From the IMG/VR virus record IMGVR_UViG_3300035365_000057, positions 1-64,000 of that record: a stretch of 64,000 bases of DNA. One strand, written 5' to 3'. The first letter of the stretch is position 1, and each line of letters starts with the position of its first letter. Both the position numbers and the translations under genes were made by a program. The stretch comes from a virus (lineage: Duplodnaviria > Caudoviricetes). This document shows, piece by piece, positions 23,925 through 64,000 of the stretch. The notes below the pieces were generated by a model. It did not search any database. It was given only the letters and a program-made list of their open reading frames with translations, and was not told the DNA's origin.

Positions 23925-23962
23925 ACTCTGCTATCAGACTTCAAGTATGCAGTTTTTATTTG

Positions 23963-24034
23963 TCGCCCCAGTCTCGATTCGAACGGACAACTCGAAGGTT
24001 AGAGCTTCGCATATTACCTTTATACTATGGGGCA
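23963..24034 (-). tRNA. Amber suppressor tRNA (anticodon CUA, presumably Gln)
   Basis: TGCCCCA/TGGGGCG acceptor; CGAAG-CTCTAAC-CTTCG anticodon arm; TTCGAAT T-loop. Confidence 0.92.
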
Positions 24035-34781: not shown

Positions 34782-34830
34782 CAAACACTTTTAAATTAAT
34801 TTAAAGTTTAATTCATTAATTATCAAAATT

Positions 34831-41000: not shown

Positions 41001-41006
41001 AGCTGG

Positions 41007-41062
41007 AGTAGGGAGGTTACCTAGATTAAGTTCTATGGGGAGTTCGATTCTCCCCTCTACTA
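41007..41062 (+). ncRNA. Minimal tRNA-like element (acceptor stem + T arm, no D arm)
   Basis: AGTAGGG/CTCTACT-A with GGGAG-TTCGATT-CTCCC; only 24 nt between them. End coordinate approximate. Confidence 0.55.
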
Positions 41063-41099
41063 CTATTAAAATTAAGTTTAATCAATAAATTAATTTGAA

Positions 41100-45050: not shown

Positions 45051-45870
45051 ATGAGTATTCGAATTCTATCTGTTGTTAGCATGTTTATAGCCAGTATTTT
45101 CGTTGGTTATAACTTGCTACCAACCGAACAAATACAAGCTCAAACGCTTGTAATTCCTTCACCGATTGAAATACCACACATGATGGATATTCAACCGAAA
45201 AAAGAGGAGTTGTCCACACCAGAGATAGATGTCCAGATAGACCTATCTACTAAAGAAGTATCTGTAAAAGGAACAGTGGACGCAAAGGTCAATGTAACAA
45301 CGATTGGTGAACCAAAACCAATTGTTAAGTGGAAAACCAGAGTAAAGAAAGAAGTTCGTAAGGATACTATTGGTTATCCTTATGTAAAATCAGTAGGACG
45401 TATGCCAACAGATAGTAAACCAATTTCTATACTCAAAACAATTGATAAAAATGCCAAGCAATAAGATTATATTAAAACAGATGCTCCGTTTATCACGAGT
45501 AATCCGAGATCTTAAAGAATCCAGAATGAAAATGAACTTAGTTCAAAATCAAACTGAATACTTTGTATGTGGTGGAGAATCATTAGATATGATTCGTTCC
45601 ATGGCAAACACGAATATATCTAATTGCTTGTATTTAGAAAAGTACTTACGCTCGTCTGTAAGTAATGCATGTAAATGCTTGGATGGTTTCATTCCAGGTA
45701 AAATGGATCCAATAGACTACATCAGTAGTAGTGATGTAAAAAATAAATTTGTCGACTTATGTCTAGGTAGGAATATTGTAGCAACAATCAATCTTACCAC
45801 TGGAATCATTATACCAACTGAACCAGAGCAAAATTTGGCAGAAGATAAATGCCCATCGGAAAAAAGTTAA
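45051..45870 (+). CDS. Two hypothetical genes (45051..45464 signal/TM; 45442..45870)
   Basis: Overlapping complete ORFs. Confidence 0.65.
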
Positions 45871-45879
45871 CATCAATAA

Positions 45880-47970: not shown

Positions 47971-47981
47971 GGAAAATAGTT

Positions 47982-49159
47982 ATGGACGTAAATGTAAACA
48001 TCAATAACAAAGGCGAACAAATCATTGGACGGTATCGCCAGGTTTTAACTTCTTACGGACCTTATTTTGGTCAGAAGTTATTCACAGTAATAAAGACTAA
48101 CCCTGATTTGAAGTGGAAAGAAGACACATTCAACGGCAAAAATACGTTACGGCAAGAAGTAAACGTATACATGCTGAAGGGTATTGACATTAAGTCAGTA
48201 GCATTTAAAGAGAAAGATATCGATGGTAATCCGAAGATTATCTTCAACGCAGAAGACAACGACAATACGCTCGTATTCCCGCTCGAAAAGCCGGACTTCA
48301 AGAATGCAACTCGCGATACTATCGCAGATTGTATTGATCGGTTGAGCAAACCGAACAGCAAGCCTATGTTCTTCGACGCTAAGGAACTTCCGGAGCTCGT
48401 AGAATTGCTGCGTATTGCTAATCAGAGTGTATTGGAATTCTATGAAGAACAGTCTCGTAAGTTCTTGAATCTATCTCAGACTGTACGCGGTATGATGGAT
48501 CAGGCAGATCGCTTCCAAGTCGAATATTTACGGCAGTGCGGAGTATCTACAGCCGAGGCTGAAATCAACGTAAAGATCGAAACTAAAGAGTAACCATTAT
48601 GACTGGCAGAATGTCTCCTTCTAGGATAGCGCTTCTGCAATTACTCATCTGTTCAGAACCAACCATATTGAGCAAAGTTCAGATTTGGAACGGCGAACAA
48701 AAGGAAACTGCCAAAAAAGTAAGCATAAGAGAGGATGGATCGGTCTTCTTTTACTATGGTAGTGGTCCATTATGGTGGCAAAGACTGTTTGGTGCTTATA
48801 AAGCCGTAAGTATTATAGACGCAGCTATAAATATTGCAGATGCAATTACTGGTTCTAATGGAACTCGTAACGAAATAGCTTTTGATGGAATTACTAAAAG
48901 TATTCTTGATGAAGCTGTTAAGAAAAAAGATCTTGATTGCGTAGTAGATATATTGTTTGATAGTATGAGAAACTGTTCTGATGGAGAACTGCATTCTAAG
49001 TATATCACACAAGAAAATCTTCGCAAATACGCAAAAGAAAAAAACTTACAAGGCAATCTCCGTATAGAGATGCCTGATGATCTATTCGGATTCGCATCCG
49101 TAGAGATACGGCCTGGGGTATCAGTACCCATTCGTATAGGCCGTGTCAAATTTAAATAA
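47982..49159 (+). CDS. Two hypothetical genes (47982..48593, 48599..49159)
   Basis: Complete adjacent ORFs. Confidence 0.7.
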
Positions 49160-49195
49160 TATTGGATTGGATATTATTAAAAACAAAATAATTTC

Positions 49196-49327
49196 ACAGT
49201 ACTGAACTGGGTACTGTTTAACATAGAATTACTGAACTGGGTAGTTCTTTGTTTATATCATAAGTAATCCAAGGTATTGAATTGGATACTTGGTGGATGT
49301 TAAAGGTTCGACTCCTTTGCTTATGAC
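49196..49327 (+). ncRNA. Three UGAAYUGG-loop hairpins, the third inside a tRNA-like acceptor/T-arm frame
   Basis: Stems differ while loops are conserved; TCATAAG/CTTATGA acceptor-like stem and AAAGG-TTCGACT-CCTTT T arm. Confidence 0.65.
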
Positions 49328-49375
49328 AACACCAGTAAGCGATTTCGGCGAGTTATTAACAATTTAAAAATCAAT

Positions 49376-51238
49376 TTGCCTATGAAATCAATTACATCTA
49401 AATATATTATCGACCGTCGTAAAGAACTTAGTAACAACATTACAAAGTATTGGAATATTATTAAAAATGAAAATGTAATTCCGAAAGACGGAAAACGAAA
49501 CTACGATCTGAAAGCGTTACTTACGAAGATCGAAGAAATGGCCGACGAACGAATATTATTGAAACTGTATTTACAGTGTATCAATATGGGTTATAAAAAG
49601 TTTTCAGAATTACCTGAAAATAATAACTATCTCGCCATTTTCACACTTAGTGAAAAGTCGGAACAACTATTTCACTTAAGCAAGATACGCACGATTGACC
49701 AAAAATTAAAGCGTTCTAAAGGTAAGAAAAACCTTAATACAACCGAAGAATTAACTTCTTCATTCATCAATATGCGTATAAACAAAATCCAATTAGAAGT
49801 AAATAAATTAGAAAAAGAAATAGAAAACTTTAACAATTCAGCAACTTTAGAAATAGAAACAGCAGCTAAATCATTAGCAGCATGAAAGGAGCAATTTACT
49901 TAAAACAGCATTTGCTTGAAACTAATAGTCACTATGAAGAAAGAGTTAACAACTACATAGTGACTGTTAGCGAAAAGTACAAATTTCTTGGAATAGAAAC
50001 TAAATTTCGCCAAGTAACAATTTATTTTGAGACTAATGAACCGTTACAAGAAAATTCAAAAAGAAAAATTGATTTTCCTGTAACAAGTAATAACATTTAA
50101 AAGATTATCAAGATTATGAAAAAGATATATTCACAAGCCGGTAAAAGAAAAGGAGTTAAAACTAGTTGTTCTAACAAAAACAAATTACGCCGTAAACAAC
50201 ACGGTATATTAATGCGTTCGATAGAACGTCCAGCACCGGAACCATCTCATCTGATAAAAGTTACAGAAACTGAGAATGGGAAAACAATAGAAATTCAGAG
50301 AGTATTAGGAAATAAAAAACAATCTGAATATACTACAAACATTGCGAAAAATGCAATGGCTGATAATAAATCTGCAAAACAATCCAAGAAAGAACTTATC
50401 AAAAAGATACTTATGGAAGCAGGATATGAACCCACAGTACGCTATACTCGTAAGCAAAAGAAACATTTTACGCGTATAGTTAAAAACAAACTATTTGCTA
50501 AACCAAAACCAATCAAACAACTTTCTAAAGAAGAATACAAAAAGAAATTCGCCGAAGAAAGAGCTGCAAAAAAGATAAAATTAGACAACTTACCACACGC
50601 ACAATTACCTGTAATAAAAGGTAAACAAAGACCAATATCAGCTGCAGAAGCAGTAAAGAAAGAAAAACCAAATAACAGAAAATTCCGTTACGTAATAAAC
50701 AGAAAATCTGATGAAAACCCAAACAAGGTTTATGATTTCTTAACAGATTATTTTGATGCTTCAACAAGAACTGAAGCAAAAGACAAAGTAAAGAGTATTG
50801 CTGAAAAATACAAGAAGGATACTTCATTCACAGGTATAACCGTTCAAGATATTAACGGAGATAATAGTATTACATACTATACTAAAGAAAAATTAGCAGC
50901 GTAATAACCATTAAACTATCAAAATTATGGGAGAACAAAATTATATTGAATGGAAATTAGCAGAAGCAAAAAGACCTCGCAAGAAACTTTGGAAAGAAAA
51001 AGAAAAAGAAAGAATTGCAAAAGCAAGAACAAATACACCAAAGCCCGAGGGTAAACCTGAAGACTGGTTGTCTGAAAGGTTAGTCGCTAAACGTATCGTA
51101 AACCGACACAACAAGAAGATTATACGTTTAAACGAGCAAAAGGCTCGTTTAAACAGCAAAATAAAATCTTATCCGAAACAGCATATTGCTGAAAAACGAT
51201 ATAAGATAAAAACATTTGCTATGTTATTAGCAGCGTAA
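49376..51238 (+). CDS. Four hypothetical genes (49376..49885, 49882..50100, 50116..50904, 50927..51238); three end in -LAA
   Basis: Complete ORFs; C-termini KSLAA, EKLAA, MLLAA. Confidence 0.7.
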
Positions 51239-51275
51239 ACTAACTAAAATCGGTTGTTTTTATTTTTTAAATGTT

Positions 51276-51351
51276 TCGCATATAGCTCAGTTGGTAGAGC
51301 CGCAATACTAATACTGTGTGATTTGCGTGGGTTCGAGTCCCACTATGCGAT
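51276..51351 (+). tRNA. Atypical tRNA (anticodon uncertain, AAU by best fold)
   Basis: TCGCATA/TATGCGA acceptor, canonical D and T arms; anticodon arm 3 nt too long and irregular. Confidence 0.6.
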
Positions 51352-51375
51352 CGATAATCCCCAAAATATATTCAT

Positions 51376-53232
51376 ATGATAATTCGTAATAAACCATGTA
51401 TTGTCTATGATATTGAGGTGTTTATTAATGTATTTCATTGTACTCTATATAATACTGAAACACAAGAACTAATTAAGTTTGAATGTTCTCAGCGTAAAAA
51501 TGAAATTCATGAAATGTGTCAGTTCTTTTTATATACTGATGCATATTTTGTTGGTTATAACAATATTCATTATGATAATCCAATAATCAACTATTGTATT
51601 GAGTATTTTAATAATGATAACTATACTCACAATCGAATTTGTGAATCTATTTTTAACATGTCAAATATTATTACATCAAACGATGATAATAATTTTGATA
51701 AATGGAAAAGATGGAAATACGCAAAAAATTTCTTGACATTAGACTTACTTACAATGCTGTATAGTAAGCAGTTACGAGTTTCTTTAAAAGAAATGCAAGT
51801 AACCATGATGTATAAAAATGTACAAGAATTTAATATCGATTGGAGAGAACCGTTATTATTAACTCAAATAGATGAAATGATTCAGTATAATATAAATGAT
51901 GTAATGTCTACTACTGAATTATTGAATCGCTGCAAGAAAGATATTGAATTACGTATAAGTATTGAAAACCAATATAATATTGATTGTTTATCAAAAGATG
52001 GTGTTAATATCGGTATGCAAATATTAGCAGAAGAATATATGCGTAAAACAGGAATTCCTTGGAATATACTAAAGAATTTACGTAGTCCTGCAGATAAAAT
52101 TGCATTAAAAGATATTATACTACCATTTATTCACTATCAAACACCAATACTACAAGAATTACTTACTGAAATGAAATCATTAACAGTAAGTCCAGGTAGA
52201 AAAGGGTATGAAAAACAATTCGTAATGGATGGTACAACATATTCAGTTGGTGTTGGCGGTATTCATAGTATAAACAAGCCAGAAATAATAATACCAAAAA
52301 ATGATGAATTACTAATTGATTGTGATGTTGCATCACTATATCCAAGTATGCTATTAAACTTTAATTTCTATCCAAAACATTTAGGAAAAGAATTCAAAGA
52401 AGTATATTCAGATATACGAGATAGAAGAATTAAAGCAAAACACGAAGGAAATAAAATTGTAAATGAAACGTTAAAATTAAGTCTAAATGGACTTAGTGGA
52501 AATTTACAAAATGAATTTTCTTGGTGTTACGATCCTAATGCAGTAATGTCTATTAGAATAAATGGACAATTATTATTATTGATGTTAGCAGAAGAATTAA
52601 CAATTCACGGATGTCGTATAGTTCAAATCAATACAGATGGTATTTTATACTTATGTAAGAAAAACAAATACGATATTATAAAAGCAATATACAATAAATG
52701 GCAAGAATTAACTGGATTAGTATTAGAAGAAGAAAACTTCAAAGCTTTTTATCAATTAGCAATTAATGATTATTTTGGTATACTTGACAACGGTCAAGTA
52801 AAAGAAAAAGGATGTTTTATTACTTCTGTTAAACTTGGTAAAGGTCTTACTCCAAAGATTATACCGAAAGCAGTAATAGCATACTTTAAAGATAGAATCC
52901 CAATTGAAAATACAATTAAAAACTGTACCGATATTAAGGATTTCTTAATGTCTGAAAAGACAGGCAAACAATGGCATGTTGAATATTTAGAAAAGGAACA
53001 ACAGCGTATTAATCGTTTCTATGCGTCTACTAATGGTGGATATCTATGGAAATGGAAAGATAATAACGGAGAGAAAGCATACCAAAATATGCTTACTGCA
53101 TCTGGTGTTACTTTACTAAATAAATTTGATGATAAACCAATCAATGAACGTAAGATTAATTACCGGTATTATATAACAGAAGCCGCTAAGATAATCGACG
53201 AATTAACTACTAAACAATTGAGTCTGTGGTAA
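51376..53232 (+). CDS. polB: DNA polymerase family B
   Basis: Exonuclease YDIE and GYNNIHYD; polymerase DVASLYPS, KLSLNGLSG, NTDG. Confidence 0.92.
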   Translation: MIIRNKPCIVYDIEVFINVFHCTLYNTETQELIKFECSQRKNEIHEMCQFFLYTDAYFVGYNNIHYDNPIINYCIEYFNNDNYTHNRICESIFNMSNIITSNDDNNFDKWKRWKYAKNFLTLDLLTMLYSKQLRVSLKEMQVTMMYKNVQEFNIDWREPLLLTQIDEMIQYNINDVMSTTELLNRCKKDIELRISIENQYNIDCLSKDGVNIGMQILAEEYMRKTGIPWNILKNLRSPADKIALKDIILPFIHYQTPILQELLTEMKSLTVSPGRKGYEKQFVMDGTTYSVGVGGIHSINKPEIIIPKNDELLIDCDVASLYPSMLLNFNFYPKHLGKEFKEVYSDIRDRRIKAKHEGNKIVNETLKLSLNGLSGNLQNEFSWCYDPNAVMSIRINGQLLLLMLAEELTIHGCRIVQINTDGILYLCKKNKYDIIKAIYNKWQELTGLVLEEENFKAFYQLAINDYFGILDNGQVKEKGCFITSVKLGKGLTPKIIPKAVIAYFKDRIPIENTIKNCTDIKDFLMSEKTGKQWHVEYLEKEQQRINRFYASTNGGYLWKWKDNNGEKAYQNMLTASGVTLLNKFDDKPINERKINYRYYITEAAKIIDELTTKQLSLW

Positions 53233-53291
53233 TACCAAAAGACTATCAGATATATTTCAAAACCATAAACTCTGTAAAAATATAGAGAATT

Positions 53292-53861
53292 ATGATTTTA
53301 GAAATAGACACTTCTATCTTAGATAGAATTCCAAACTTGTCTATTAATCAATTAGTATTCCTAACTCTTGTATTGAGTGATATCAAAACAATCAATCAAG
53401 ACATTCAAAAACTTCTCAGCCTGGTTAATGAAGAAGAAATACATGAGTTAGAACTTCAAGGTTTAATACTAATCAAATTAGATGAATCAGGTAACCAAGT
53501 CATTAGTAAAACAGAAAAACTAAACGAACTTCTAAAAGAAGATAAGTCCATGTTTGATGAATTCTATGACCTATTTCCAGTTTATGTTACTAGACCTGAC
53601 GGAACTAAAGGTTTCCTTAGGAGTAATATAAACAAATGTAGAAAAGAGTATAACCGTATCATTGGTAAATCTAAAGCAATGCATGAACATATCATGGCTT
53701 GTTTAAGATATGAAATCGATGATAAAATGCAAACAGGCAAATTAGGTTATATGAAAACTATGTGGAAATGGCTCACTCAACACGAGTGGGAAACCGTTGA
53801 AGAACAAATGAAATTAGAAGAACCTGTAAATAGTTATAGCTATGGAACAGAATTATTCTAA
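53292..53861 (+). CDS. Putative replication initiator / helicase loader
   Basis: wHTH-like N-terminus, FDEFYDLFP segment; overlaps the helicase gene. Confidence 0.55.
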   Translation: MILEIDTSILDRIPNLSINQLVFLTLVLSDIKTINQDIQKLLSLVNEEEIHELELQGLILIKLDESGNQVISKTEKLNELLKEDKSMFDEFYDLFPVYVTRPDGTKGFLRSNINKCRKEYNRIIGKSKAMHEHIMACLRYEIDDKMQTGKLGYMKTMWKWLTQHEWETVEEQMKLEEPVNSYSYGTELF

Positions 53862-54822
53862 TACGCTAACTTTCCAACATATTTCAACAGCAACTAAAGA
53901 AGCGGTTGAATATATTCGCAAAAGAAAGAATCACGAAATTCAATCTCTTGCAACACGATGGAATAAGTTCAATAAACACTGTATGGGTGGAATTGAACCG
54001 AATACGATATATACTATAGTAGGTATATCAGGTAGTGGAAAATCTTCATTTGTGAATACGCTCGAAAATGATTTAATAGATTTAAATCCAGATCAGGAAA
54101 TAATAGTATTGAATTTTAGCTTTGAAATGCTTAGTTCAAGAAATGTTGGTCGTAAATTGAGTAGTAAGTTAAGGCAAACTACTTCTCAGCTTTATAGTTC
54201 TACAGAAGAATTATCAGATGAATTATTAAATGAGGTAGAAGAGACAGCAAATGAAATAAAGGAGTATCCGATATATTATATCGATACTCCAGGAACTGTA
54301 TCTCAAATATCTGAAACTATCGATTACTTTTATGAACAAAAAGTAAAAGATACAAATAAAAAGTTTATAATCATCTTAGACCATACTTTATTAGTAGAAG
54401 GTCAAAGCTCGACATTACAAACAATATCCGATTTACAGAAACTGTTTATTAAGGTGAAAAAATACCCGAATACTACTATAATTCAGTTATCACAGATGAA
54501 TCGTAATATTGAGTCTCCTGAAAGGATTAACAATCCGTCTATGCATTATCCAATGCGTAGTGATATTTCCTCAGCGGATACTATATTTCACGCGTCAGAT
54601 TACGTTATTTGTATTCATCGTCCAGAATTACTAAATATTGGAGCGTATGGACCGAATCGTTTACTGGTGAAAAACAAAGTCTATTTGCATATCTTAAAAA
54701 ATAGAGATGCAGGAGAATGTGTGATATTAGAATTCGAAAACGATTTAAAATACAATAATTTAATTGAAACAGTACGAAATGAAGAATCTGCAAAGAAAAT
54801 TTCATTTAGTAATAACAATTAA
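53842..54822 (+). CDS. dnaB: DnaB-like replicative helicase
   Basis: GISGSGKS, FSFEM, ILDH, LSQMNRNIE, ILKNRD. Confidence 0.88.
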   Translation: MEQNYSNTLTFQHISTATKEAVEYIRKRKNHEIQSLATRWNKFNKHCMGGIEPNTIYTIVGISGSGKSSFVNTLENDLIDLNPDQEIIVLNFSFEMLSSRNVGRKLSSKLRQTTSQLYSSTEELSDELLNEVEETANEIKEYPIYYIDTPGTVSQISETIDYFYEQKVKDTNKKFIIILDHTLLVEGQSSTLQTISDLQKLFIKVKKYPNTTIIQLSQMNRNIESPERINNPSMHYPMRSDISSADTIFHASDYVICIHRPELLNIGAYGPNRLLVKNKVYLHILKNRDAGECVILEFENDLKYNNLIETVRNEESAKKISFSNNN

Positions 54823-54836
54823 AAGGCTGAAAAATT

Positions 54837-55379
54837 ATGAAAACATATACTTTTACATTACCGAAGAATAACAATAGTGCTAAGATTTATAAAGAAAAGT
54901 TGATGGACCGTATTATAACTGCTTATCCTTGGATGACAGTTGAAAGTAAGTGTGATTATCCGTATAGCAATGACGGTATCGAATATGCCAGCGCAGGTGA
55001 TATGATTACGCTTGGTGTAAGTAAGACGCATAATGTATCTTGGTTACCTAAGGAAATCTATACCAATAAGACTGCAGAAGAACTTGCTAAAGAATTGTTC
55101 GGTTTTGATCCGTACAATAATATCAACTTTGATTTAGAAACAGAGTTCTATAAAGCTATTAACGCATTAAACGTATACGCAAACGAACATTATCCTTTCG
55201 AAAAGGATTACGATTACGTAGACGAATTCGGTACTCCGATTAAAATCTTTGATAACTTTATCCAGATTGGTTATGAGATTATTCCTATCGCAGCAGGTTC
55301 TCTTAATCATCTGAAACCTAAAACTAAGAAAACTATCATTGACATTACGATTAAGATTAAGAATCGTGGTCTTTATTAA
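54837..55379 (+). CDS. Hypothetical protein (180 aa)
   Basis: Complete ORF. Confidence 0.7.
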   Translation: MKTYTFTLPKNNNSAKIYKEKLMDRIITAYPWMTVESKCDYPYSNDGIEYASAGDMITLGVSKTHNVSWLPKEIYTNKTAEELAKELFGFDPYNNINFDLETEFYKAINALNVYANEHYPFEKDYDYVDEFGTPIKIFDNFIQIGYEIIPIAAGSLNHLKPKTKKTIIDITIKIKNRGLY

Positions 55380-55442
55380 TAACAATTCCGTACTATCAGA
55401 AACTATCAGAAATTATCAGGGAATACAAAAATATAAGCTTTT

Positions 55443-56183
55443 ATGATTGTATTACCTAAAGAAAAACAAAAGGCTAAAGTTGCCAATCCAAAACTCTTAA
55501 TATTATTTGGTAGACCAAAAGCAGGTAAAAGTACACTTGCTGCAGCCATTGATAATAATCTCATCATTGACTTAGAAAATGGTTATCAAGCTCTATCAGC
55601 TTTAGTAGTACAAGCTAGGTCTGTTAAAGACTTCGGTGAAATAGCTACAGCTATTAAAGAAGAGATTAAGCGTAACGGTAAATTCCCTTATAAGTATATA
55701 ACAATAGATAATGCAACTCGCCTTGAGGAAATGTGTCTTTCGTATGCCATTCAGTTGTACAAAGCCACACCTCAAGGTAAAAATTACCAAGGAACAGATA
55801 TTCGTACTCTCCCAAATGGAAGCGGATATATGTGGCTTAGAATGGCAGTTAAAAAAGTAATAGACTTGTTCAGAGATCTATGTGAAACGCTTATAATTAT
55901 CGCTCACGTTAAAGATAGACAAATAACCGTAGATGGTCAAGAAATGTCAGAAATGACAATTGATTTGACAGGTAAATTAGGAGATATAATTTGTGGAGAA
56001 GCAGATGCAATTGGTTACGTATATCGAAAGAAAAACGAAACTATTGTATCATTCGAAGGTGGTGAAAATACCATCAGAGAAGCTAGAGCAGAACATTTAC
56101 GAGGAAAGAAGATTGTAGTAGCTACTAGTGATGAAAATAACAATATTACGGTAGATATGACAAAAATATTTCTCCCAGAATAA
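55443..56183 (+). CDS. Sak4-like / AAA_24 recombination ATPase
   Basis: GRPKAGKST, IIDLE, ITIDN, IIAH, GEADAIGY. Confidence 0.8.
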   Translation: MIVLPKEKQKAKVANPKLLILFGRPKAGKSTLAAAIDNNLIIDLENGYQALSALVVQARSVKDFGEIATAIKEEIKRNGKFPYKYITIDNATRLEEMCLSYAIQLYKATPQGKNYQGTDIRTLPNGSGYMWLRMAVKKVIDLFRDLCETLIIIAHVKDRQITVDGQEMSEMTIDLTGKLGDIICGEADAIGYVYRKKNETIVSFEGGENTIREARAEHLRGKKIVVATSDENNNITVDMTKIFLPE

Positions 56184-56222
56184 CTTTAACAGAATTTTAA
56201 ATCAGTTTAAAGAAAAGATATT

Positions 56223-56825
56223 ATGATATACAGTACAGAATTAGCAAACAAGATTGAAACTATCGATAACAGTAATAAATATCTTGAAGCAGGTATTCAT
56301 GAAAACGTATCTTTAGTAAGTGCAAGAACAGAAAAATCTATTAACGGTAATACGTTCTTAGAAATTAAGTTCGAAAAGGATGGTAAATCATTAGTTCATA
56401 CTGAATGGGAATCTAACAAATTTCCTGAAATGACTGAAGAAGCATACCAGGAGAGAGTATCTCGTCAGGTTAAGCGTGTACTTCAGATTTTGAGCTGTTT
56501 CTATCCTAAAGAAGCACTTGTGTTTGCAGGAGCAACTTATAAAGAATTTGCAGAGTGGGCTGCGAATCTATTAAATGCTGCAGATAAGACGAAATTAGTA
56601 AGAGTAAAGATTGTATATAACAATAAGGGATATACTACTTTGCCTAGCTATTGTAAGTTTACTTTCATTGAACCTATGGAATTACCAGAAGGTGAAAAGA
56701 GTAAGATTACAATTCTGAATATCGATCAGATAACTCGTCCTGTTGTAGCAGATAACGAAGCAAAAGAAACAAATCCTTTGGAAGGAACTACAGAAACATC
56801 AACTAACGATGATCTGCCTTTCTAA
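56223..56825 (+). CDS. Putative single-stranded DNA-binding protein
   Basis: Follows the Sak4-like gene; acidic tail ending DDLPF. Confidence 0.7.
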   Translation: MIYSTELANKIETIDNSNKYLEAGIHENVSLVSARTEKSINGNTFLEIKFEKDGKSLVHTEWESNKFPEMTEEAYQERVSRQVKRVLQILSCFYPKEALVFAGATYKEFAEWAANLLNAADKTKLVRVKIVYNNKGYTTLPSYCKFTFIEPMELPEGEKSKITILNIDQITRPVVADNEAKETNPLEGTTETSTNDDLPF

Positions 56826-56870
56826 AGATTAAAACAAAATAAGCCGCCTACGCTAGGCATATATAGCGAC

Positions 56871-56955
56871 ACGAGGATTAGTATACCACACTATGAAACT
56901 ATCTAAGATAAGTCAGAATAAGTGATTACAAAATAGTATACAATCCTCGTTTTTT
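56871..56955 (+). terminator. Long-loop hairpin with T-tract
   Basis: ACGAGGATT-A-GTATAC ... GTATAC-AATCCTCGT then TTTTT. Confidence 0.5.
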
Positions 56956-56992
56956 AGAAAAAAAATAATATCAAAAACGATTGTTTATAGTC

Positions 56993-57068
56993 TGTGGTTT
57001 AGCTCAGTGGTAGAGCGACAGTTCTTAGTAAGCTGTAGGTCGTAGGTTCGAATCCGGTACAACCACGG
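56993..57068 (+). tRNA. Atypical tRNA (Thr-like scaffold; loop TCTTAGTAA, anticodon ambiguous)
   Basis: TGTGGTT/AACCACG acceptor, canonical D arm, ACAGT/GCTGT stem with 9-nt loop, 2-nt bulge in the T stem. Confidence 0.65.
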
Positions 57069-57117
57069 GTCAACGTTGGAGTTGCTATAAAAGGTAGTTT
57101 TGATATTTTTAAAAAAA

Positions 57118-57628
57118 GGACTTTTAGCTCAGTCGGTCAGAGCATTTAGATTAAAAAAATATGCAAAAAATGAAAAAATACGATATAGAAAACGTAATAG
57201 ATTTACGCGATAATTAGAACTTAACTTGGAAACAAATTGGAAATCTTTTAAAAATCTCTCCAGAAACATTACGAAAAGCATATAAAAGAATAAAAGAAGA
57301 AAAGACTTCGCATTAGATAAATCCGAATTCTTATATTTTTCAAAAGAAAAGAGGTTTGGAAAGAAAAAAACAATTTGTAAAAGATTTAGGTGGAAAATGT
57401 CAAATATGCGGTTATAATAAAAATATAGCAGCGTTAGAATTTCATCACATACAACCAAGTACAAAAAAATTCCAATTAGATGTAAGACACTTATCAAATA
57501 CAAATATACAAACATTAAAAGAAGAAATAGAAAAATGTATATTAGTGTGTGCTAATTGTCATAGAGAAATTCATTATGCTGCATAACTCATAATCTGAAG
57601 GTCGTAGGTTCAAGCCCTACAAGGTCCA
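57118..57628 (+). tRNA. tRNA-Met(CAU) interrupted by a 436-nt HNH-coding insert
   Basis: 5' half 57118-57150 (GGACTTT, D arm, TTAGA); 3' half 57587-57628 (CTCATAA, TCTGA, AGGTC, T arm, AAGGTCC-A); the halves pair. Confidence 0.85.
57170..57586 (+). CDS. HTH-HNH endonuclease, 138 aa (2 TAG=Gln)
   Basis: MKKYDIENVIDLRDNQ(TAG)NLTWKQIGNLLKISPETLRKAYKR...CQICGY...LEFHH...LVCANCHREIH. Confidence 0.85.
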
Positions 57629-57647
57629 CAATTAAACCATATATCAT

Positions 57648-58619
57648 ATGCTATACGATACAACTAAAATACAAGAAGAACAGCAAGTTACGTTAGAATG
57701 GATACTTTCTAAAGTAACTGAATATGATATATACTCAGCGTATATTGGTAATTTTAAAGTAGGAATGATCTATAACAGTCCTTTTAGACAGGATAAAAAT
57801 CCTTCATTTGGCTGTTATTACAGTAGAACGACGAAACAACTAATGTTTAAAGATCATGGTACAGGTGATTGCGGTAATGTAATTAAATTCGTCTCATTAC
57901 TTACCGGTTTAACTAATTATTCAGATATACTCAATAATATAGTTAATAAGCTTAAAATTACTAATAATACGCAACTCGTTAGCTCTAAGCAATACATATC
58001 GTCCAAAGAGACAGTAATTGGTGTTGTCCGACAAGACTTTACTCTAACTGACACCAATTACTGGTCTCAGTTCAATATATCATTAGATACATTGAAAAAA
58101 TTTGGAGTAAGTAGTATTAAATATTATTTATGTGACGGTATTGTTAAGGGTATTTACAAGGATACAAATCCTATGTACGCATATAAGGTCTACAATCATT
58201 TTAAAATATATCGACCTTTAGCAGATAAATATACGAAATGGCGTAATAACCTGACAGAAAATGATATTCAGGGGTTTAAACAGTTACCTAAAACTGGAGA
58301 TATACTCATTATTACAAAGAGTATGAAAGACGTCATGTGTTTATACGAAATGGGTATACCAGCAATAAGCCCATCATCAGAAAGTACGTTTATTCCAGAT
58401 AAGGCTTTAGAACAGCTTAAAAAACGTTTTAAACGCATTATAATACTTTTTGATAGAGATAAAGCTGGTGTTAAATATCTTCGCAAAATAAGCGTTAAAA
58501 CAGGCTTAGAAGGATTTCTTTTAAATAAGAAATTTAAAGCAAAAGATGTATCGGATGCTATTAAAGCTAATGGATTTGAAAAAATTAAAAGTTGGATTTA
58601 TAAAGAGTTAAAACTATGA
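57648..58619 (+). CDS. dnaG: DNA primase (TOPRIM)
   Basis: SPFRQDKNPSF, FKDHG, ITKSMKD, FDRDKAG, KDVSD. Confidence 0.88.
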   Translation: MLYDTTKIQEEQQVTLEWILSKVTEYDIYSAYIGNFKVGMIYNSPFRQDKNPSFGCYYSRTTKQLMFKDHGTGDCGNVIKFVSLLTGLTNYSDILNNIVNKLKITNNTQLVSSKQYISSKETVIGVVRQDFTLTDTNYWSQFNISLDTLKKFGVSSIKYYLCDGIVKGIYKDTNPMYAYKVYNHFKIYRPLADKYTKWRNNLTENDIQGFKQLPKTGDILIITKSMKDVMCLYEMGIPAISPSSESTFIPDKALEQLKKRFKRIIILFDRDKAGVKYLRKISVKTGLEGFLLNKKFKAKDVSDAIKANGFEKIKSWIYKELKL

Positions 58620-58840
58620 ATACAGTAAATAAAATATTCAATGGAATTCGTAAAATAATTGCTTTTCCTTTTAAAGCAATTGGTATTATTACTATTGTAC
58701 TTGGTACACTGATTCTATTAGGTGGATTTAGTATTTATGGTAATATTGATAATGTGAAAAAATCAATAGCAGATCTAAAAATTGAATTAGAAAATACCAA
58801 AAATGAGATAGAAAAAGCAAAGAAAGAAGAAAAAGAGTGA
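58616..58840 (+). CDS. Small membrane protein
   Basis: One TM segment followed by a coiled coil. Confidence 0.6.
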   Translation: MNTVNKIFNGIRKIIAFPFKAIGIITIVLGTLILLGGFSIYGNIDNVKKSIADLKIELENTKNEIEKAKKEEKE

Positions 58841-59204
58841 AGGTCTTGTTAAGAACGCCACTCCTAACGAATTCGATGGAATAAAATTTCGTAGTAAACT
58901 TGAAACATATACATATAAAAAGCTGAAAGAAGCAAAAATAGATGCTGAATATGAAAAGCATAAATTTGAGCTACTTCCAGCTTTTAATTTTCATGGTGAA
59001 AAAGTAAGAGCAATTACATATTTACCAGATTTTGTCGGAAAAAACTTTATAATTGAATGTAAAGGATTTCCGAATGATGCCTTTCCTTTAAAGGAAAAAC
59101 TATTCAAACATCTGCTCGTGGATATACTCCCAGATAGTATGTATTATGTAGTACATACTCAAAAACAAGTCGATAAATTAATTAACGAATTGAAAAATCT
59201 ATGA
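58803..59204 (+). CDS. PD-(D/E)XK endonuclease (resolvase/DUF1064-like), 133 aa, TAG at codon 3
   Basis: ATG AGA TAG AAA...KNATPNEFDGIKFRSKLE...YLPDF...IIECKG; TGA overlaps the next ATG; missing from the ORF track. Confidence 0.8.
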
Positions 59205-60055
59205 GCAATTTTATTATTAACGGAGAACGTATTGTAACTAAACCAGAAGGTCAAGATTATGATTTAATGCCGGGCAAAGTATACGATTTACTATTCGATA
59301 ATTATGAAATGTATTCATATTTAAAAGAAAATGGTAACTTAAATATGCCTAAAAAGATATATGAAATTGAAGAAGATATTAAATTCATGGATAGAGTATT
59401 ATTATTCCACAATTCGGAATACAATAACGGTAATACTGGTGTGTTACTTGCTGGAGATAAAGGAACCGGAAAATCCATGCTAGCAAAAAGAATTGCTTTA
59501 AAAAGTAATTTACCAATTATAATTGTAGATTCTTCATATCCTTTATGGCAAATTACTAAATTCTTTAAGAAAGTAAAGACAGAAACATGCATTATCTTCG
59601 ATGAAATTGAAAAAAATCCAAGAACATGGCCATCTGAAGATCTATTAACATTTTTGGACGGTATACAAGAAACCGGTAAGAAAATCGTAATTATGACATG
59701 CAATAAAACAGAAGGCTTAGATGAAAATCTGTTCGATCGTTGTTCTCGAATACGTTATTATCGCAAGTATAAAGCAAACGCTAATGAAATATTTATTAAA
59801 GAAATGATTGAAGATAAAGGTTTAACACCCAATCAACCTTTAATAGATTTTATTAAACGTTTCACAGTAAAATCATTCGATAATATCAATTCATTCTTAG
59901 ATGAATATAAATTATATTTAGAAACTACTGATACTAACTTTATGTTAGAAAATGTAGCAAATATAATGAATATTTCATTAGAAGATGAGTTAGAAAAGAA
60001 TGATTCAAAAGATAATATTGAAAATGATCTTATTCTTAACGATATTGACGTATAA
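59201..60055 (+). CDS. AAA+ ATPase
   Basis: GDKGTGKS Walker A, IIFDEIEK Walker B, MTCN, DRCSR. Confidence 0.85.
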   Translation: MSNFIINGERIVTKPEGQDYDLMPGKVYDLLFDNYEMYSYLKENGNLNMPKKIYEIEEDIKFMDRVLLFHNSEYNNGNTGVLLAGDKGTGKSMLAKRIALKSNLPIIIVDSSYPLWQITKFFKKVKTETCIIFDEIEKNPRTWPSEDLLTFLDGIQETGKKIVIMTCNKTEGLDENLFDRCSRIRYYRKYKANANEIFIKEMIEDKGLTPNQPLIDFIKRFTVKSFDNINSFLDEYKLYLETTDTNFMLENVANIMNISLEDELEKNDSKDNIENDLILNDIDV

Positions 60056-60072
60056 ACTTACTTTGTGTATCT

Positions 60073-61050
60073 ATGACGATAACTAAACCGTATTACGAAG
60101 ACATGGACCGTATCAGTAACTCTGGTATTGGTTGGTTCCTTAAAAAAGGACCTCAGTACTATCATGATATGGTTACAGGTAAAGAAGAAGGATTAAAACT
60201 TCCTCAGCTTGAAAAAGGTACGATGATACACGAATACTTATTACAATCAGAAGAATTCTGGAAAGATTATGTTGTTCTTGATTATGAAGTACCTAAAGTA
60301 AAACAACAAAAAGATTTCTGTGAGGCATATGTAGCTTCATTAGAACTTACAGAAGATGACAAAAGACTAAAAGCATATCGTAGCGCATATAACAATACGA
60401 AAAGCGATGCAATAGCCTTAAAAGAAGCTACAGAGTTAGTCAATAAATATCCAAATTATATTGATTATCTCAGTCAAATTGACAATAAAAAAGTAATATC
60501 ATTTGCTGATTTAAATATGCTCAAAAAGATTAAAGAGAATATTGATAATCATAAGAAAGCAAAAGAATTATTATCCGATATATCCGGTTGTGAAAATCAT
60601 AATGAATTTCACATAAACTGGGAAATAAAAATAAAAGGTTGGTTGGCACCTTGTAAATCATTATTAGATAGAGTCATATTTGATCATATAAATCATAAGA
60701 TTATACTAATAGATTTAAAAACAACCAGTGATGTTTATAATTTCAAACATTCTGTAGAAGAATTTGGATATTATAGACAAATTACGTATTATCTAATGGC
60801 AATTACATGGTATATGAAAGACTGTGATATTGATATTAGTGAGTACGATTTGGAAGCTTACATTATAGCCATTCAAACAAATGGTAATAATGAAGTAAGA
60901 GTATTTGATATGTATAACGATGAGGAGTTACTCAGCAGTAAAGACATTATCTTAGATGCATTATCAGAACTTTCATACCATTATCAGACTAATAATTGGG
61001 AACATACTCGTAATTATTATGAAGGCAATGGTGTTGAAAAACTTGAATGA
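60073..61050 (+). CDS. PD-(D/E)XK exonuclease (RecE/ExoVIII-like)
   Basis: GTMIHEYLL, KSLLD, IDLKTT, YYRQITYY. Confidence 0.8.
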   Translation: MTITKPYYEDMDRISNSGIGWFLKKGPQYYHDMVTGKEEGLKLPQLEKGTMIHEYLLQSEEFWKDYVVLDYEVPKVKQQKDFCEAYVASLELTEDDKRLKAYRSAYNNTKSDAIALKEATELVNKYPNYIDYLSQIDNKKVISFADLNMLKKIKENIDNHKKAKELLSDISGCENHNEFHINWEIKIKGWLAPCKSLLDRVIFDHINHKIILIDLKTTSDVYNFKHSVEEFGYYRQITYYLMAITWYMKDCDIDISEYDLEAYIIAIQTNGNNEVRVFDMYNDEELLSSKDIILDALSELSYHYQTNNWEHTRNYYEGNGVEKLE

Positions 61051-61528
61051 CGTTAGTATCTTTATTGCTCCACTATTAGACGATAAAATTACAATAAATG
61101 ATTTGACAACTGAAAGTGGATTTATTAATGCTTATACTTCTGATATAAATAGACCGTATCTAGAAAATAAAGTATTTTTGTTATATGATAGCCAAGTAAA
61201 TACAAAAGAATCTTTAGAACGATTTTGTAAATTCGATAAACTTGATACTATTCATAACACAAAATATATTACAATAAATAAGCATCATTATACAGTATAT
61301 TGTTTTAACAATCCTATTTACAATAATGAAATTAATAATCTTAAATCTTTTGGTAAAACAAATAATCTTAATGCTAATTTTAGAATATACAATTTTTGGA
61401 AAGACGTGCCAATTCCAAGATTGAATGAAAGATTATTTTTTCCGAATTGCGGTTTTGGTGAGACCGTAGAAGCTGAATTACCAGAAGAAGATTATTATGA
61501 TTATCTAGATAAATTTATTTCTAGATAA
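61028..61528 (+). CDS. Hypothetical protein (166 aa)
   Basis: ATG at 61028 overlaps the upstream gene; last gene of the rightward arm. Confidence 0.65.
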   Translation: MVLKNLNDVSIFIAPLLDDKITINDLTTESGFINAYTSDINRPYLENKVFLLYDSQVNTKESLERFCKFDKLDTIHNTKYITINKHHYTVYCFNNPIYNNEINNLKSFGKTNNLNANFRIYNFWKDVPIPRLNERLFFPNCGFGETVEAELPEEDYYDYLDKFISR

Positions 61529-61611: not shown

Positions 61612-64000
61612 TTAGAAGCTCATCAATTGATTCTATAAATAATTTCGTTTAGATTTTGGATCTTGTGCTTCAATAATACTTCTAAAAGGTGTTACCTTTA
61701 TAATATTTTTTAAAATTCTTGGCATTCCTTCGTATACACCTCTATCGATTATATCAAAAGGTCCTTTTCCTCCGAAGTATGTAAATGGATTAAATAATCC
61801 TATAATATTAGAAGCATTCTCCAAAGTTGAAAATGCTGCTGTTGGAGATTTAATCATTGAAACAAATTCAAATGGATTATACATAGTTCTAAATTCAAAT
61901 GCAGATCGCAATGCCAAATATGTAATAGACTAGAATAACCAATTATCATAATCATCATCACCGTCTACAATTGCAGCCATTGTTAAAGCTACTGTTGTAG
62001 AACCAGCTATCAATAGCATGTCATATAATACTTTTTTAACAGCATATTGCTCATATTCCTACATATTATCATAATCAGCTAATAACTGAGTAAGAGCAAA
62101 ATGTCTATTTCCAATTACATTCTTTAAAAATTTTCCAGTAACCCAATAATATCCATCTTCTATTACTCCTAAATCCAAATTGAAATGTCTTCTTTTAAAT
62201 CTGTCGTGCAAACCCTATATCATAAAGTTTTTATGCATTACAACATATGCAGTTATTGCATTTGCATGTATAGCTGACTTATCAACCTCTCTAAGAGTTC
62301 CGTCTATTCGTTTACTTATTATCTCTATTCTATTTCTAACATCATTCAATAATTTGTTTGTTACATATTTAGAATATTTATCAGATAATATTGTATCTCC
62401 ATTTGGTAATTCCTCATACGCATCATATAAATTTGTATCCAATTGTGAAAACATTACTTTACCTTTTTTTCTGTTAGCTGGATAGAATTTATTAATGTAT
62501 TCATTTTCGGACATAAATCCAACACCTTTTACAAATCTATAATTATCATATACACTTAATAAAGTGTGACTCTTAACAACGTAATCAGATTGGGTATAAC
62601 CCATATACCAGAAGTTCTAATTAATAGATCTTAATACCTAGCTCTAATCGAGTCTATCGAATAATTCTCTATTCTCTTTTACAACCTGATTTAGCATCAT
62701 AAGATATGCTAATTTTCCTTTCGGAACTGGATTACCTATATTTTCCATCATACTTGGTAATTGTCTTTGAAATTCCTATATAGCAAATCTTAAATTCTTA
62801 GTATTAAAAAATCTACCTAATTTAGATTCCATAGTAGTATACGTAGTATCTGTAAAGAAACTAGTTGCTATAGACCATATATTACCAGATAGATTTACTT
62901 TAGTAATAAAAGATCTTAGTAAATTTAATAACTTAGATACATTTATTTCTTTGCCGAATATTTCTGTTTGAATAGGATTAACTTTTCTACCATAAAGTAT
63001 TCTATCAACTAATAACTGTGCCTATTGATAAACATTAGTAGATCCTGCGGTTTTAATTCCTCTTTTTGTAGAGATCTATATTTGTTTTAATAGATTCAAT
63101 AACATTTCAATATCATCCTATTTACTACTCATATTTTTATAATTAGCAGCCATATCATAATATTGAACTACCGCAGCAACAGCATCAGTACTAATAGTAT
63201 TCGGATCATCTAACATTTTTATATACCTAGTAGGTATTACTTTTATAGGGTCACCATTAGGCATTGTTGAATAATCTTCTACAAAATCTAAATCGTCAGA
63301 CTATGTTTGAATAACTTCTTCAAAACTATATTTGATAGATCCAAGAACACCTTTTCTTCCTATAACTTGCATATATCTAGCAGGTATTTGAGGCATTCTT
63401 GTATCATCGTGATTAACCAAGAAAGAAATATAAGAATTAGCTTTCAACATTGTATCTGTTATCTAATCATATAATTCTTTTACTTCTGGTTTATTAGCCA
63501 TTTCGTTGTACGCTTTACTATTATCATACAATTTCTTGTTAGGCTGAATTGATGGACCATTTGGATCGAAATCTTTATTATACCAATCAGAACTAGGATC
63601 TACATCACTATACTTATTTATAGGTATTATTTCAGTATATTTTTCAATATATTCATCTTTTGGTTTTAATTGAGTATAATAAGATGCCGGTCTCATTTGT
63701 CCTCTGTTATCTTCGTAGTGATTAGCATCAAACCATTCCTAGAATTTACCATTTTCTCTAGCAATATTTGCGTCTCTATAATATTCATCGGTAGGTACAA
63801 CCTCAGCGAAATTAGAAAATTTATCGAGTAATCCATCCGGATCGTCTACTTTTTCATACGTACGCAGATCAGCAATATCTTTATCTAACTATAATATTGA
63901 TGCTTTTTCAATATCAGATAATGAATCGGCTTTTACTGTACCAGTTACTGGATCTCTAAATAATCGTAATATATATCTTCTCTTTTCTCTTAATTCGTAT
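61612..64000 (-). CDS. C-terminal ~795 aa of a giant virion-packaged protein (RNA polymerase gene cluster type; TAG=Gln)
   Basis: ORFs 63463..63696, 62215..62604 and 61633..61917 share one frame and end in TAG; first TAA at 61612. Identity inferred from size and position. Confidence 0.7.

What the first reader, a model, noticed from the sequence alone, without database searches (positions are those of the whole stretch)
57170..59204. The only TAG-dependent genes found in the early arm are nucleases
Seen: the PD-(D/E)XK endonuclease has a single plausible start, ATG-AGA-TAG (58803-58811), and the HNH has TAGs at codons 16 and 49. PolB, helicase, primase, SSB, the ATPases and the exonuclease around them have none. 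Inference: amber codons act as a translational timer or safety catch, so a resolvase-type nuclease is transcribed with replication genes but made only at packaging time. This would extend the proposed lysis-timing role of recoding to DNA processing.
Basis: partly seen in the sequence, partly recalled or inferred. Interest (0 to 1): 0.8.

Follow-up and report, generated by a model that had tools for sequence, protein, structure and literature searches.

The report
Amber-gated resolvase in phage replication operon
In a gut crAss-like phage that reads the stop codon TAG as glutamine only in its late genes, one gene of the otherwise TAG-free replication operon, a DNA-junction-cutting nuclease, starts ATG-AGA-TAG, and nearly all recoded relatives of one clade keep such a TAG, so this enzyme can probably be made only once the phage's suppressor tRNA is present.

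Summary
The window is a TAG-to-Gln recoded crAss-like phage (Suoliviridae). It has TAG-rich late genes and a CTA suppressor tRNA at 23962-24034(-). Its + strand replication arm is almost free of TAG.

In that arm, the DUF1064/PD-(D/E)XK "resolvase" (58803-59204) begins ATG-AGA-TAG. An HNH gene (57161-57586) has two internal TAGs.

Resolvase:
- In a 19-member primase clade, 17 of 18 known-recoded phages keep at least one TAG in this gene, mostly at codons 2-10. The one loss is cr4_1.
- In 16 recoded relatives, ten neighbouring early genes carry 2 TAG against 936 CAA/CAG.
- Standard-code relatives have Gln at a matching site.
- A second recoded clade (Oafivirinae) has no TAG in this gene, so the trait is clade-specific.
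- Downstream initiation is unlikely: the codons after the TAG evolve as coding sequence and no canonical start lies between.

HNH: it is a free-standing homing endonuclease inserted in a tRNA-Met anticodon loop. It is absent from relatives, and homing endonucleases in their early arms mostly lack TAGs.

Timing is inferred, not shown, and selection cannot be separated from tolerance. Recoding as a translational timer is published, including for an intron endonuclease. I found no paper on the resolvase case. Other first-reader notes of this scan flagged the same resolvase start and split tRNA on this same genome.

The parts
58803..59204 (+). Resolvase-type PD-(D/E)XK nuclease gene (133 codons), needs TAG read as sense
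   Evidence: Pfam DUF1064 E 1.7e-11 and Phage_endo_I below cut-off. PHROG 190 'Holliday junction resolvase' E 4e-17. AF2 model pLDDT 85.9 with PD-(D/E)XK folds on top. Motifs PDF...ECK are invariant.
58809..58811 (+). In-frame TAG, codon 3 of the resolvase (the proposed gate)
   Evidence: Relatives carry a TAG at codon 2-10 of the same basic tail.
58616..58840 (+). 74-aa ORF with a hydrophobic segment, TAG-free. Its ATG overlaps the primase stop and its last 38 nt overlap the resolvase start in another frame.
   Evidence: No PHROG hit. cr4_1 has a 92-aa ORF in the same position.
57648..58619 (+). DnaG-type primase, TAG-free, upstream operon partner
   Evidence: Pfam Toprim_2 and Zn_ribbon_DnaG. 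0 TAG in 15 relatives.
59201..60055 (+). AAA ATPase. Its ATG overlaps the resolvase TGA (ATGA).
   Evidence: Pfam AAA E 6.6e-14. Sequence.
57161..57586 (+). HNH homing endonuclease ORF (141 codons) with TAGs at codons 19 and 52
   Evidence: Pfam HNH E 7.9e-7. PHROGs 2255 and 3106 cover residues 33-139; PHROG 18469 covers 1-49. The CxxC...HH...N...CxxCH motif is intact.
57118..57150 (+). 5' half of a split tRNA-Met(CAU) gene (acceptor, D arm, 5' strand of the anticodon stem)
   Evidence: ARAGORN with introns allowed. Intact homologue in IMG/VR locus L080.
57587..57628 (+). 3' half of the split tRNA-Met(CAU): loop CTCATAA, 3' stem strand, T arm, acceptor
   Evidence: The 436-nt insert 57151-57586 is almost wholly the HNH ORF. 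No group I intron or ribozyme match.
23962..24034 (-). Amber suppressor tRNA (anticodon CTA). It lies at the border between TAG-poor (30642-24308) and TAG-rich (23033-1) minus-strand genes.
   Evidence: ARAGORN and Rfam tRNA. TAG counts per gene.

Best explanation
The resolvase gene is a late-coded gene embedded in a standard-coded replication operon. It overlaps the stop or start of its neighbours, so it is presumably co-transcribed with the primase and the ATPase.

A ribosome meets UAG at codon 3. While release factor 1 is unopposed, this ends translation after a dipeptide. Once the phage's own tRNA(CUA), encoded at the head of the TAG-rich late block, has accumulated, UAG is read as Gln and the full 133-residue PD-(D/E)XK junction nuclease is made.

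Production of a branch-cutting nuclease would thus be withheld during replication and released when concatemers must be debranched for packaging. The HNH homing endonuclease would be held back by the same rule, but as a lineage-specific passenger.

Shown: the TAG, its reading as Gln, its retention in one clade, and the TAG purge in all neighbouring genes. Inferred: late action of the suppressor, co-transcription, and resolvase activity.
For: - TAG at codon 3, with no canonical in-frame start before the conserved core.
- The 13 codons around the NAT motif, between the TAG and the first conceivable alternative start (ATA/ATT at I27), differ among 15 relatives 164:166:607 by codon position. They are therefore translated in this frame.
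- In cr6_1 and G008 the TAG sits at codon 33, inside the conserved YTY-K-LKEA block.
- The standard-code relative L029 has ...SQNKKIKNAT where the recoded L009 has ...S-TAG-NKKIKNAT. TerL TAG sites align mostly with Gln.
- 16 recoded relatives: resolvase has 16 TAG against 48 CAA/CAG. Ten other early genes have 2 TAG against 936 CAA/CAG in 30,754 codons.
- Primase tree: every TAG-bearing resolvase falls in one clade of 19, and 17 of its 18 known-recoded members carry the TAG.
- Position: TAG lies in the tail before the NAT motif in 14 of 17 recoded genomes with known code status in the alignment. Late genes of the window show no 5' enrichment, at 1.08% both overall and in the first 15 codons.
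- TerL control: only 26 of 104 TAG sites are kept as TAG at 73-89% protein identity.
- The suppressor tRNA lies at the border of the TAG-rich block.
- Precedents: Borges et al. preprint 10.1101/2021.08.26.457843; T4 RBS hairpins that delay late products on early transcripts (PMC2988022).
Against: - No expression data exist for any recoded crAss-like phage, so suppressor timing is assumed.
- Recoded Oafivirinae (cr273_1, cr7_1, cr131_1) and cr4_1 have TAG-free resolvases. The gate is therefore dispensable.
- The TAG share of Gln codons in the resolvase is about 25%, similar to late genes (100 TAG against 246 CAA/CAG in the window). A gene simply freed from early-phase selection would look much the same.
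- By my rough estimate, the number of TAGs per gene (0, 1, 2 or 3) is not clearly non-Poisson.
- The basic tail is poorly constrained, so TAG may accumulate there for that reason alone.
- The relatives are not independent samples. One ancestral gain explains most of the pattern.
- Resolvase activity rests on family names and fold only.
Confidence: 0.6

Rival explanations
1. Tolerated, not selected. The resolvase is needed only late or at low level, so selection that removes TAG from early genes does not act on it. TAG and CAA/CAG then drift to the late-gene equilibrium. The delay is a by-product with no adaptive timer, and the 5' bias reflects the unconstrained basic tail.
For: - The TAG share of Gln codons in the resolvase (16 of 64) matches late genes (100 of 346).
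- Lineages carry 0, 1, 2 or 3 TAGs.
- TAG-free resolvases occur in recoded Oafivirinae and cr4_1.
- TAG sites turn over fast in TerL.
Against: - By my count from the alignment, about 14 of 23 Gln codons in the tail are TAG against about 7 of 52 in the core.
- cr6_1 and G008 have CAA/CAG at the tail Gln and instead carry a TAG at a conserved Lys position.
- Only 1 of 18 known-recoded clade members lacks a TAG. I estimate about 4 would be expected from the late-gene TAG share (0.29) and about 4.3 Gln codons per gene.
- None of these is decisive, because the relatives are not independent.
Confidence: 0.28
2. The TAG is never decoded. Either ATG-AGA-TAG is a mini-ORF and the nuclease starts at a non-canonical codon downstream, or it is made as a fusion by a +1 frameshift from the overlapping upstream ORF (the 74-aa ORF here, the primase tail in cr53_1 and cr109_1).
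For: - The upstream ORF overlaps the resolvase start by 38 nt in the +1 related frame.
- In cr53_1 and cr109_1 the primase 3' end overlaps the resolvase start in the same way.
Against: - No ATG, GTG, TTG or CTG lies in frame between the TAG and the conserved core in the window, and no ATG, GTG or TTG in the relatives inspected. The first ATA/ATT is at invariant I27, after invariant N18, A19 and G26 and near-invariant D25.
- cr56_1 has no overlapping upstream gene yet keeps TAG at codon 3.
- The TAG at codon 33 in cr6_1 and G008 is inside the core.
- No slippery motif lies at the GAG-TGA junction.
- The genome decodes about 100 other TAGs as sense.
Confidence: 0.05
3. Decay. The TAGs mark genes on the way to loss. 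For the HNH this would mean a dead homing endonuclease left inside a broken tRNA gene.
For: - The HNH is absent from all fetched relatives.
- It splits a tRNA gene with no recognisable self-splicing core.
- A TTG at 57356 could give the HNH domain alone.
Against: - Resolvase: strong purifying selection along the whole ORF in more than 20 lineages.
- HNH: the only interruptions are TAGs, with no TAA, TGA or frameshift. Both TAGs lie inside regions that match HNH-family profiles, and the catalytic and zinc motifs are intact.
Confidence: 0.05

Closest known systems
Stop-codon recoding as a switch for late-gene translation in gut phages (Ivanova 2014; Yutin 2021, PMC7886860; Borges et al. 2021 preprint 10.1101/2021.08.26.457843; Peters 2022, PMC9523058)
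   Same: The logic is the same: early genes are readable in the host code, while in-frame TAG needs a phage suppressor tRNA and so delays translation. Borges et al. already propose this for a group I intron endonuclease that sits in an early gene of TGA-recoded Agate phages.
   Different: Those papers describe the crAss-like replication machinery as standard-coded and name lysis and tail-tube genes as preferentially recoded. Here one core replication-arm gene, the resolvase, is the consistent exception, usually with a single TAG close to the start. I found no mention of it.
T4 translational delay of late products carried on early or middle polycistronic transcripts by RBS-sequestering hairpins (I-TevI/II/III, segB, mobE, soc, e and others; reference list includes Barth 1988 on gene 49 endonuclease VII); review PMC2988022
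   Same: The outcome is the same: nucleases transcribed with early genes are translated only late.
   Different: The T4 mechanism is an RNA hairpin plus a late promoter. Here it would be a sense-reassigned stop codon plus a suppressor tRNA. No hairpin was looked for in this window.
T7 endonuclease I (gene 3) and DUF1064 phage junction nucleases
   Same: Small PD-(D/E)XK nuclease with a basic N-terminal tail, the FRSxLE...PDF...E-x-K motifs, and a location among DNA-metabolism genes.
   Different: Sequence similarity to Pfam Phage_endo_I is below the family cut-off (19.3 against 29.1 bits). T7 Endo I ranks only 42nd in Foldseek. Activity has not been tested.
Free-standing HNH homing endonucleases in phage tRNA gene clusters (T5-like, FelixO1-like and Pseudomonas phages)
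   Same: The window's HNH matches these at 30-45% identity, and they lie between tRNA genes.
   Different: Here the ORF lies inside the anticodon loop of a tRNA-Met gene and carries two amber codons.

Membership tests
PD-(D/E)XK nuclease superfamily (DUF1064, PF06356) | Profile match above the curated cut-off | tested here: met
   PF06356: 45.0 bits against a cut-off of 24.7, E 1.7e-11.
PD-(D/E)XK nuclease superfamily (DUF1064, PF06356) | Catalytic motif (P)D...(D/E)-x-K on the core strands | tested here: met
   P75, D76, F77 and E85, C86, K87 are invariant in 14 sequences.
PD-(D/E)XK nuclease superfamily (DUF1064, PF06356) | Restriction-endonuclease-like alpha/beta fold | tested here: met
   AF2 pLDDT 85.9. 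VIA-align top hits: I-Bth0305I Z 8.8 (rmsd 2.5, 86 aligned), VRR-NUC Z 7.5, Vsr Z 7.1, TnsA Z 7.0, Hjc Z 5.8. Foldseek E-values were all above 0.05.
Holliday junction resolvase (T7 endonuclease I type, PF05367) | Profile match above the curated cut-off | tested here: not met
   PF05367: 19.3 bits against a cut-off of 29.1. PHROG 190, named 'Holliday junction resolvase', matches at E 4e-17, but that is only an annotation name.
Holliday junction resolvase (T7 endonuclease I type, PF05367) | Structure-selective cleavage of four-way junctions | not testable with these tools
   Needs a biochemical assay.
Stop-codon-recoded (code 15) phage with late-gene recoding | Many in-frame TAGs in conserved late genes that align with Gln | tested here: met
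   TerL 13, portal 17 and MCP 3 TAGs. TerL TAG sites align with Gln or TAG in relatives.
Stop-codon-recoded (code 15) phage with late-gene recoding | Phage-encoded suppressor tRNA with anticodon CUA | tested here: met
   tRNA(cta) at 23962-24034(-), found by ARAGORN and Rfam.
Stop-codon-recoded (code 15) phage with late-gene recoding | Temporal switch: suppression active only late in infection | not testable with these tools
   No transcript or proteome time course is available. It is inferred from the TAG-free early arm.
HNH endonuclease (PF01844) | Profile match and H-N-H / CxxC motifs | tested here: met
   29.6 bits against a cut-off of 21.4. Motifs are intact.
Group I intron in a tRNA anticodon loop | Ribozyme core (P3-P9) in the insert | tested here: inconclusive
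   No Rfam match up to E = 10 in 56850-57700. 426 of the 436 nt are ORF, which leaves little room for a core. Absence of a match is not proof.

The most novel reading that the evidence does not exclude
A single start-proximal amber codon is a selected, relocatable translational switch. Recoded phages would place it on an individual dangerous or late-acting gene inside an early operon. It has been kept on the junction resolvase since the origin of recoding in one Suoliviridae clade, and it is replaced by a new TAG elsewhere in the gene when the old one is lost (cr6_1 and G008).
Probability: 0.35. Interest if true: 0.7.

Novelty: new member of a known kind. Interest (0 to 1): 0.55.

Why it matters
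The regulatory role of phage stop-codon recoding is still a hypothesis built on genome maps. Published maps show the crAss-like replication module as plain standard code.

A single gene in that module that keeps an amber codon, usually within the first ten codons, across many genera gives a minimal and clean test object. It involves one codon and one protein, sits in one operon with built-in TAG-free controls on both sides, and has a natural TAG-free allele (cr4_1, Oafivirinae) for comparison.

If the gate is real, recoding is used gene by gene as well as block by block. It would also mean that crAss-like phages postpone branch resolution by translation, as T4 does with RNA hairpins.

It matters for annotation too. 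Standard-code gene callers miss this gene or mislabel it: cr52_1 has no resolvase CDS called over the matched stretch.

Tried and rejected
- Downstream or non-canonical start, and +1 frameshift fusion with the overlapping upstream ORF. Rejected on codon-position evidence, lack of start codons, cr56_1 having no overlap, and the core TAG in cr6_1.
- General 5' enrichment of TAG in late genes. Not found.
- 'Nucleases in general carry TAGs'. Rejected. The exonuclease has 0 TAG in 16 relatives. No TAG was flagged in the Mre11-like genes of the six annotated relatives. HNH and intron endonucleases in the early arms of cr125_1 and cr6_1 have none or only a C-terminal one.
- Other TAG-bearing ORFs in the arm. 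No family hits; they are not conserved, or they lie in conserved non-coding DNA.
- Late polyvalent gene (61612-63999) as a control for TAG retention. Too divergent at 25-36% identity. TerL was used instead.
- cr4_1 bases 1-48000 as a late-gene control. Almost no orthologues of the window's late genes lie in that half.
- PDB sequence search for the resolvase. Nothing.
- Foldseek against the PDB. Only weak E-values.
- Exact-pattern search for an uninterrupted copy with the window's own anticodon stem. No hit. A search with the 3' half alone found intact tRNA-Met genes.
- Rfam search for an intron or ribozyme in the HNH insert. Nothing.
Full report
**What the window is.**
Megablast and tblastn place the window among crAss-like phages of the family Suoliviridae, with cr4_1, cr53_1, cr56_1 and cr109_1 of Loutivirinae as nearest named relatives. 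The record is 76,554 bases, and the window is its first 64,000.

With TAG read as sense, the minus-strand genes at 1-23033 and 61612-64000 become long ORFs holding up to 24 TAGs each. They include the major head protein, portal and large terminase. ARAGORN and Rfam find a tRNA with anticodon CTA at 23962-24034(-).

On the minus strand this tRNA lies at the border between a TAG-poor block (30642 down to 24308) and the TAG-rich block. The + strand arm from about 31.5 to 61.5 kb holds a sigma factor, DNA polymerase, DnaB helicase, AAA_24/Sak4, primase, AAA ATPase and an exonuclease.

**Check of the observation.**
ATG-AGA-TAG is at 58803-58811, in frame with a 133-codon ORF that ends at 59204. The standard code gives no ORF in that frame.

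The product matches DUF1064 above the Pfam cut-off and PHROG 190, which is named 'Holliday junction resolvase'. It keeps invariant PDF and ECK motifs. The AlphaFold model (pLDDT 85.9) finds PD-(D/E)XK nucleases as its best structural matches: I-Bth0305I Z 8.8, VRR-NUC 7.5, Vsr 7.1 and Hjc 5.8. Similarity to T7 endonuclease I is below the Pfam cut-off, so 'resolvase' is an inferred function.

The HNH ORF (57161-57586) has TAGs at codons 19 and 52. Both lie inside stretches that match HNH-family profiles, and the zinc and H-N-H motifs are intact.

All other called + strand genes between 47982 and 61528 have no TAG after their start. A few further small ORFs in the arm contain TAGs. They have no family hits. 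They are either not conserved in the closest relative or lie in conserved non-coding DNA with non-protein-like translations.

**Relatives: the resolvase TAG.**
I collected the orthologous gene from 51 IMG/VR loci and 16 GenBank crAss-like genomes. The code state of each genome was judged from TAG counts in the large late gene next to the arm.

In recoded genomes the resolvase usually carries one TAG in its short basic N-terminal tail:
- MRq in the window.
- MKRq in cr53_1 and G001.
- MTq in cr56_1.
- MKKq in cr109_1 and cr60_1.
- Codon 7 in G002 and cr52_1.
- Codon 9 in G006 and cr125_1.
- Codon 10 in cr115_1.
- Codon 5 in G004.
- Codon 4 in G007.

cr6_1 and G008 have CAA/CAG at the tail Gln and instead carry a TAG at codon 33, in place of a conserved Lys. 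Standard-code relatives have Gln at a matching site: L029 reads ...SQNKKIKNAT against ...S-TAG-NKKIKNAT in L009.

Across 16 dereplicated recoded relatives the resolvase holds 16 TAG against 48 CAA/CAG. Ten other conserved early genes hold 2 TAG against 936 CAA/CAG in 30,754 aligned codons.

In a primase tree, every TAG-bearing resolvase falls in one clade of 19 (support 93/93). Of its 18 known-recoded members, 17 have the TAG. cr4_1 is a recent loss and L021 has unknown code status. The sister group uses the standard code.

**Limits of the pattern.**
cr4_1 is recoded (139 TAG in 12,869 late codons) yet has a TAG-free resolvase. The recoded Oafivirinae (cr273_1, cr7_1, cr131_1) form a separate clade, and their resolvases are also TAG-free. 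The trait is therefore clade-specific and dispensable, and most of it can be traced to a single ancestral gain.

The TAG share of Gln codons in the resolvase is about 25%, which equals that of late genes (100 TAG against 246 CAA/CAG). In that respect the gene simply looks late-coded.

Three things go beyond that:
- Position. TAG lies in the tail before the NAT motif in 14 of 17 recoded genomes with known code status in the alignment. By my count about 14 of 23 Gln codons in the tail are TAG, against about 7 of 52 in the core. Late genes of the window show no 5' enrichment.
- The relocated TAG in cr6_1 and G008.
- Persistence. Only 25% of TerL TAG sites stay TAG at higher protein identity (26 of 104).

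None of these is decisive, because the tail is weakly constrained and the genomes are related.

**Can the TAG be bypassed?**
No ATG, GTG, TTG or CTG lies in frame between the TAG and the conserved core in the window, and no ATG, GTG or TTG in the relatives inspected. The 13 codons around the NAT motif differ among 15 relatives 164:166:607 by codon position, which is the mark of translated sequence.

A +1 frameshift from the overlapping upstream ORF would not work in cr56_1, which has no overlap. The TAG at codon 33 in cr6_1 lies inside the core.

**Mechanism.**
The primase stop overlaps the start of a 74-aa ORF. That ORF overlaps the resolvase start by 38 nt, and the resolvase stop overlaps the ATPase start. 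This speaks for one transcript.

In my reading, UAG at codon 3 ends translation while only the host machinery is present, and it is read as Gln once tRNA(CUA) is available. That the suppressor acts late is inferred from two facts: all early genes avoid TAG, both as a sense codon and as a stop, and the tRNA sits at the head of the TAG-rich block.

T4 reaches the same end by other means. Late products carried on early polycistronic transcripts, including homing endonucleases, are kept untranslated by RBS-sequestering hairpins (PMC2988022). The same review cites Barth 1988 on gene 49, endonuclease VII.

**The HNH.**
ARAGORN with introns allowed finds a tRNA gene at 57118-57629 interrupted by 436 nt that are almost entirely the HNH ORF. 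The 3' half keeps a canonical CTCATAA loop.

An uninterrupted tRNA-Met(CAT) with the same acceptor stem and T arm exists in an IMG/VR contig. No intron or ribozyme model matches the insert. The whole tRNA-plus-HNH block is missing from relatives.

Homologues are free-standing homing endonucleases lying between tRNA genes in T5-like and other phages. Homing endonucleases in the early arms of recoded relatives mostly have no internal TAG. The HNH TAGs are thus a lineage-specific case of what Borges et al. proposed for an intron endonuclease, and 'nucleases' as a class is not the right generalisation.

**Comparison with the literature.**
Yutin 2021 and the Borges preprint state that recoding in crAss-like phages is confined to late genes and that the replication machinery is in standard code. 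Borges et al. name lysis genes, a tail tube gene and one unknown family as preferentially recoded. Searches for resolvase together with in-frame TAG in crAss-like phages found nothing.

The concept is known; the conserved resolvase case appears to be new. Other first-reader notes of this scan flagged the same start and the split tRNA on this genome. I tested both here.

Noticed in passing
window 57118-57629: A tRNA-Met(CAU) gene is split between nucleotides 31 and 32 by a 436-nt insert that is almost only the HNH ORF. No self-splicing core was detected. The two halves still pair (acceptor 7 bp, anticodon stem 5 bp). An intact homologue sits in a five-tRNA cluster in IMG/VR locus L080.
   Followed up: partly
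window 56994-57066: A tRNA-like gene found by Rfam (37 bits) but not by default ARAGORN. It has either a 9-nt anticodon loop (TCTTAGTAA) or a 7-nt loop with anticodon TAG on a short-variable-arm body, and two extra G in the T stem.
   Followed up: no
window 34050-34443, 37787-37907, 39364-39522: Three hatchet ribozymes and a RAGATH-9 RNA lie in the early arm. Two of the hatchets are just upstream of tRNA-Leu(TAA) at 34697-34782.
   Followed up: no
window 45870-47980: About 2 kb with no plausible ORF on either strand under either code. It is 71% identical in DNA over 1.7 kb to the closest relative G001 (L077), and Rfam finds no match at gathering thresholds. It is a candidate large non-coding RNA or origin region.
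   Followed up: partly
L060 (cr60_1) primase, L061 (cr52_1) helicase, L062 (cr125_1) regulator: In relatives, the only TAGs annotated inside early genes are in the last few codons (primase codon 326 of 332, helicase codon 321 of 321). These proteins would end at TAG early in infection and gain a short C-terminal extension once suppression starts. In the window no gene of the replication block (47982-61528) ends in TAG.
   Followed up: partly
L069/L070 (G001), L068 (G003), L075 (G008), L072/L073 (cr56_1): The large terminase gene is split into two separated pieces in several relatives, presumably by introns or inteins. It is in one piece in the window (20988-23033).
   Followed up: no
L061 (cr52_1) 7980-8360: The RefSeq record of cr52_1 has no resolvase CDS over the matched stretch, only a 'hypothetical protein' overlapping its start. 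The ORF there carries three TAGs.
   Followed up: yes
window 58616-58840; L001 2190-2468: A small ORF with a hydrophobic segment lies between primase and resolvase in the window (74 aa) and in cr4_1 (92 aa). It is absent from cr53_1 and cr109_1, where the primase tail overlaps the resolvase start. cr4_1, which has the larger insert, is the one clade member whose resolvase lost its TAG.
   Followed up: partly
window 40360-41100: A 0.7-kb gap without a credible ORF. It is partly conserved in G001 (77% over 44 residues of a spurious minus-strand frame) and shows a repeated DSKILH-coding motif, which suggests DNA repeats.
   Followed up: no
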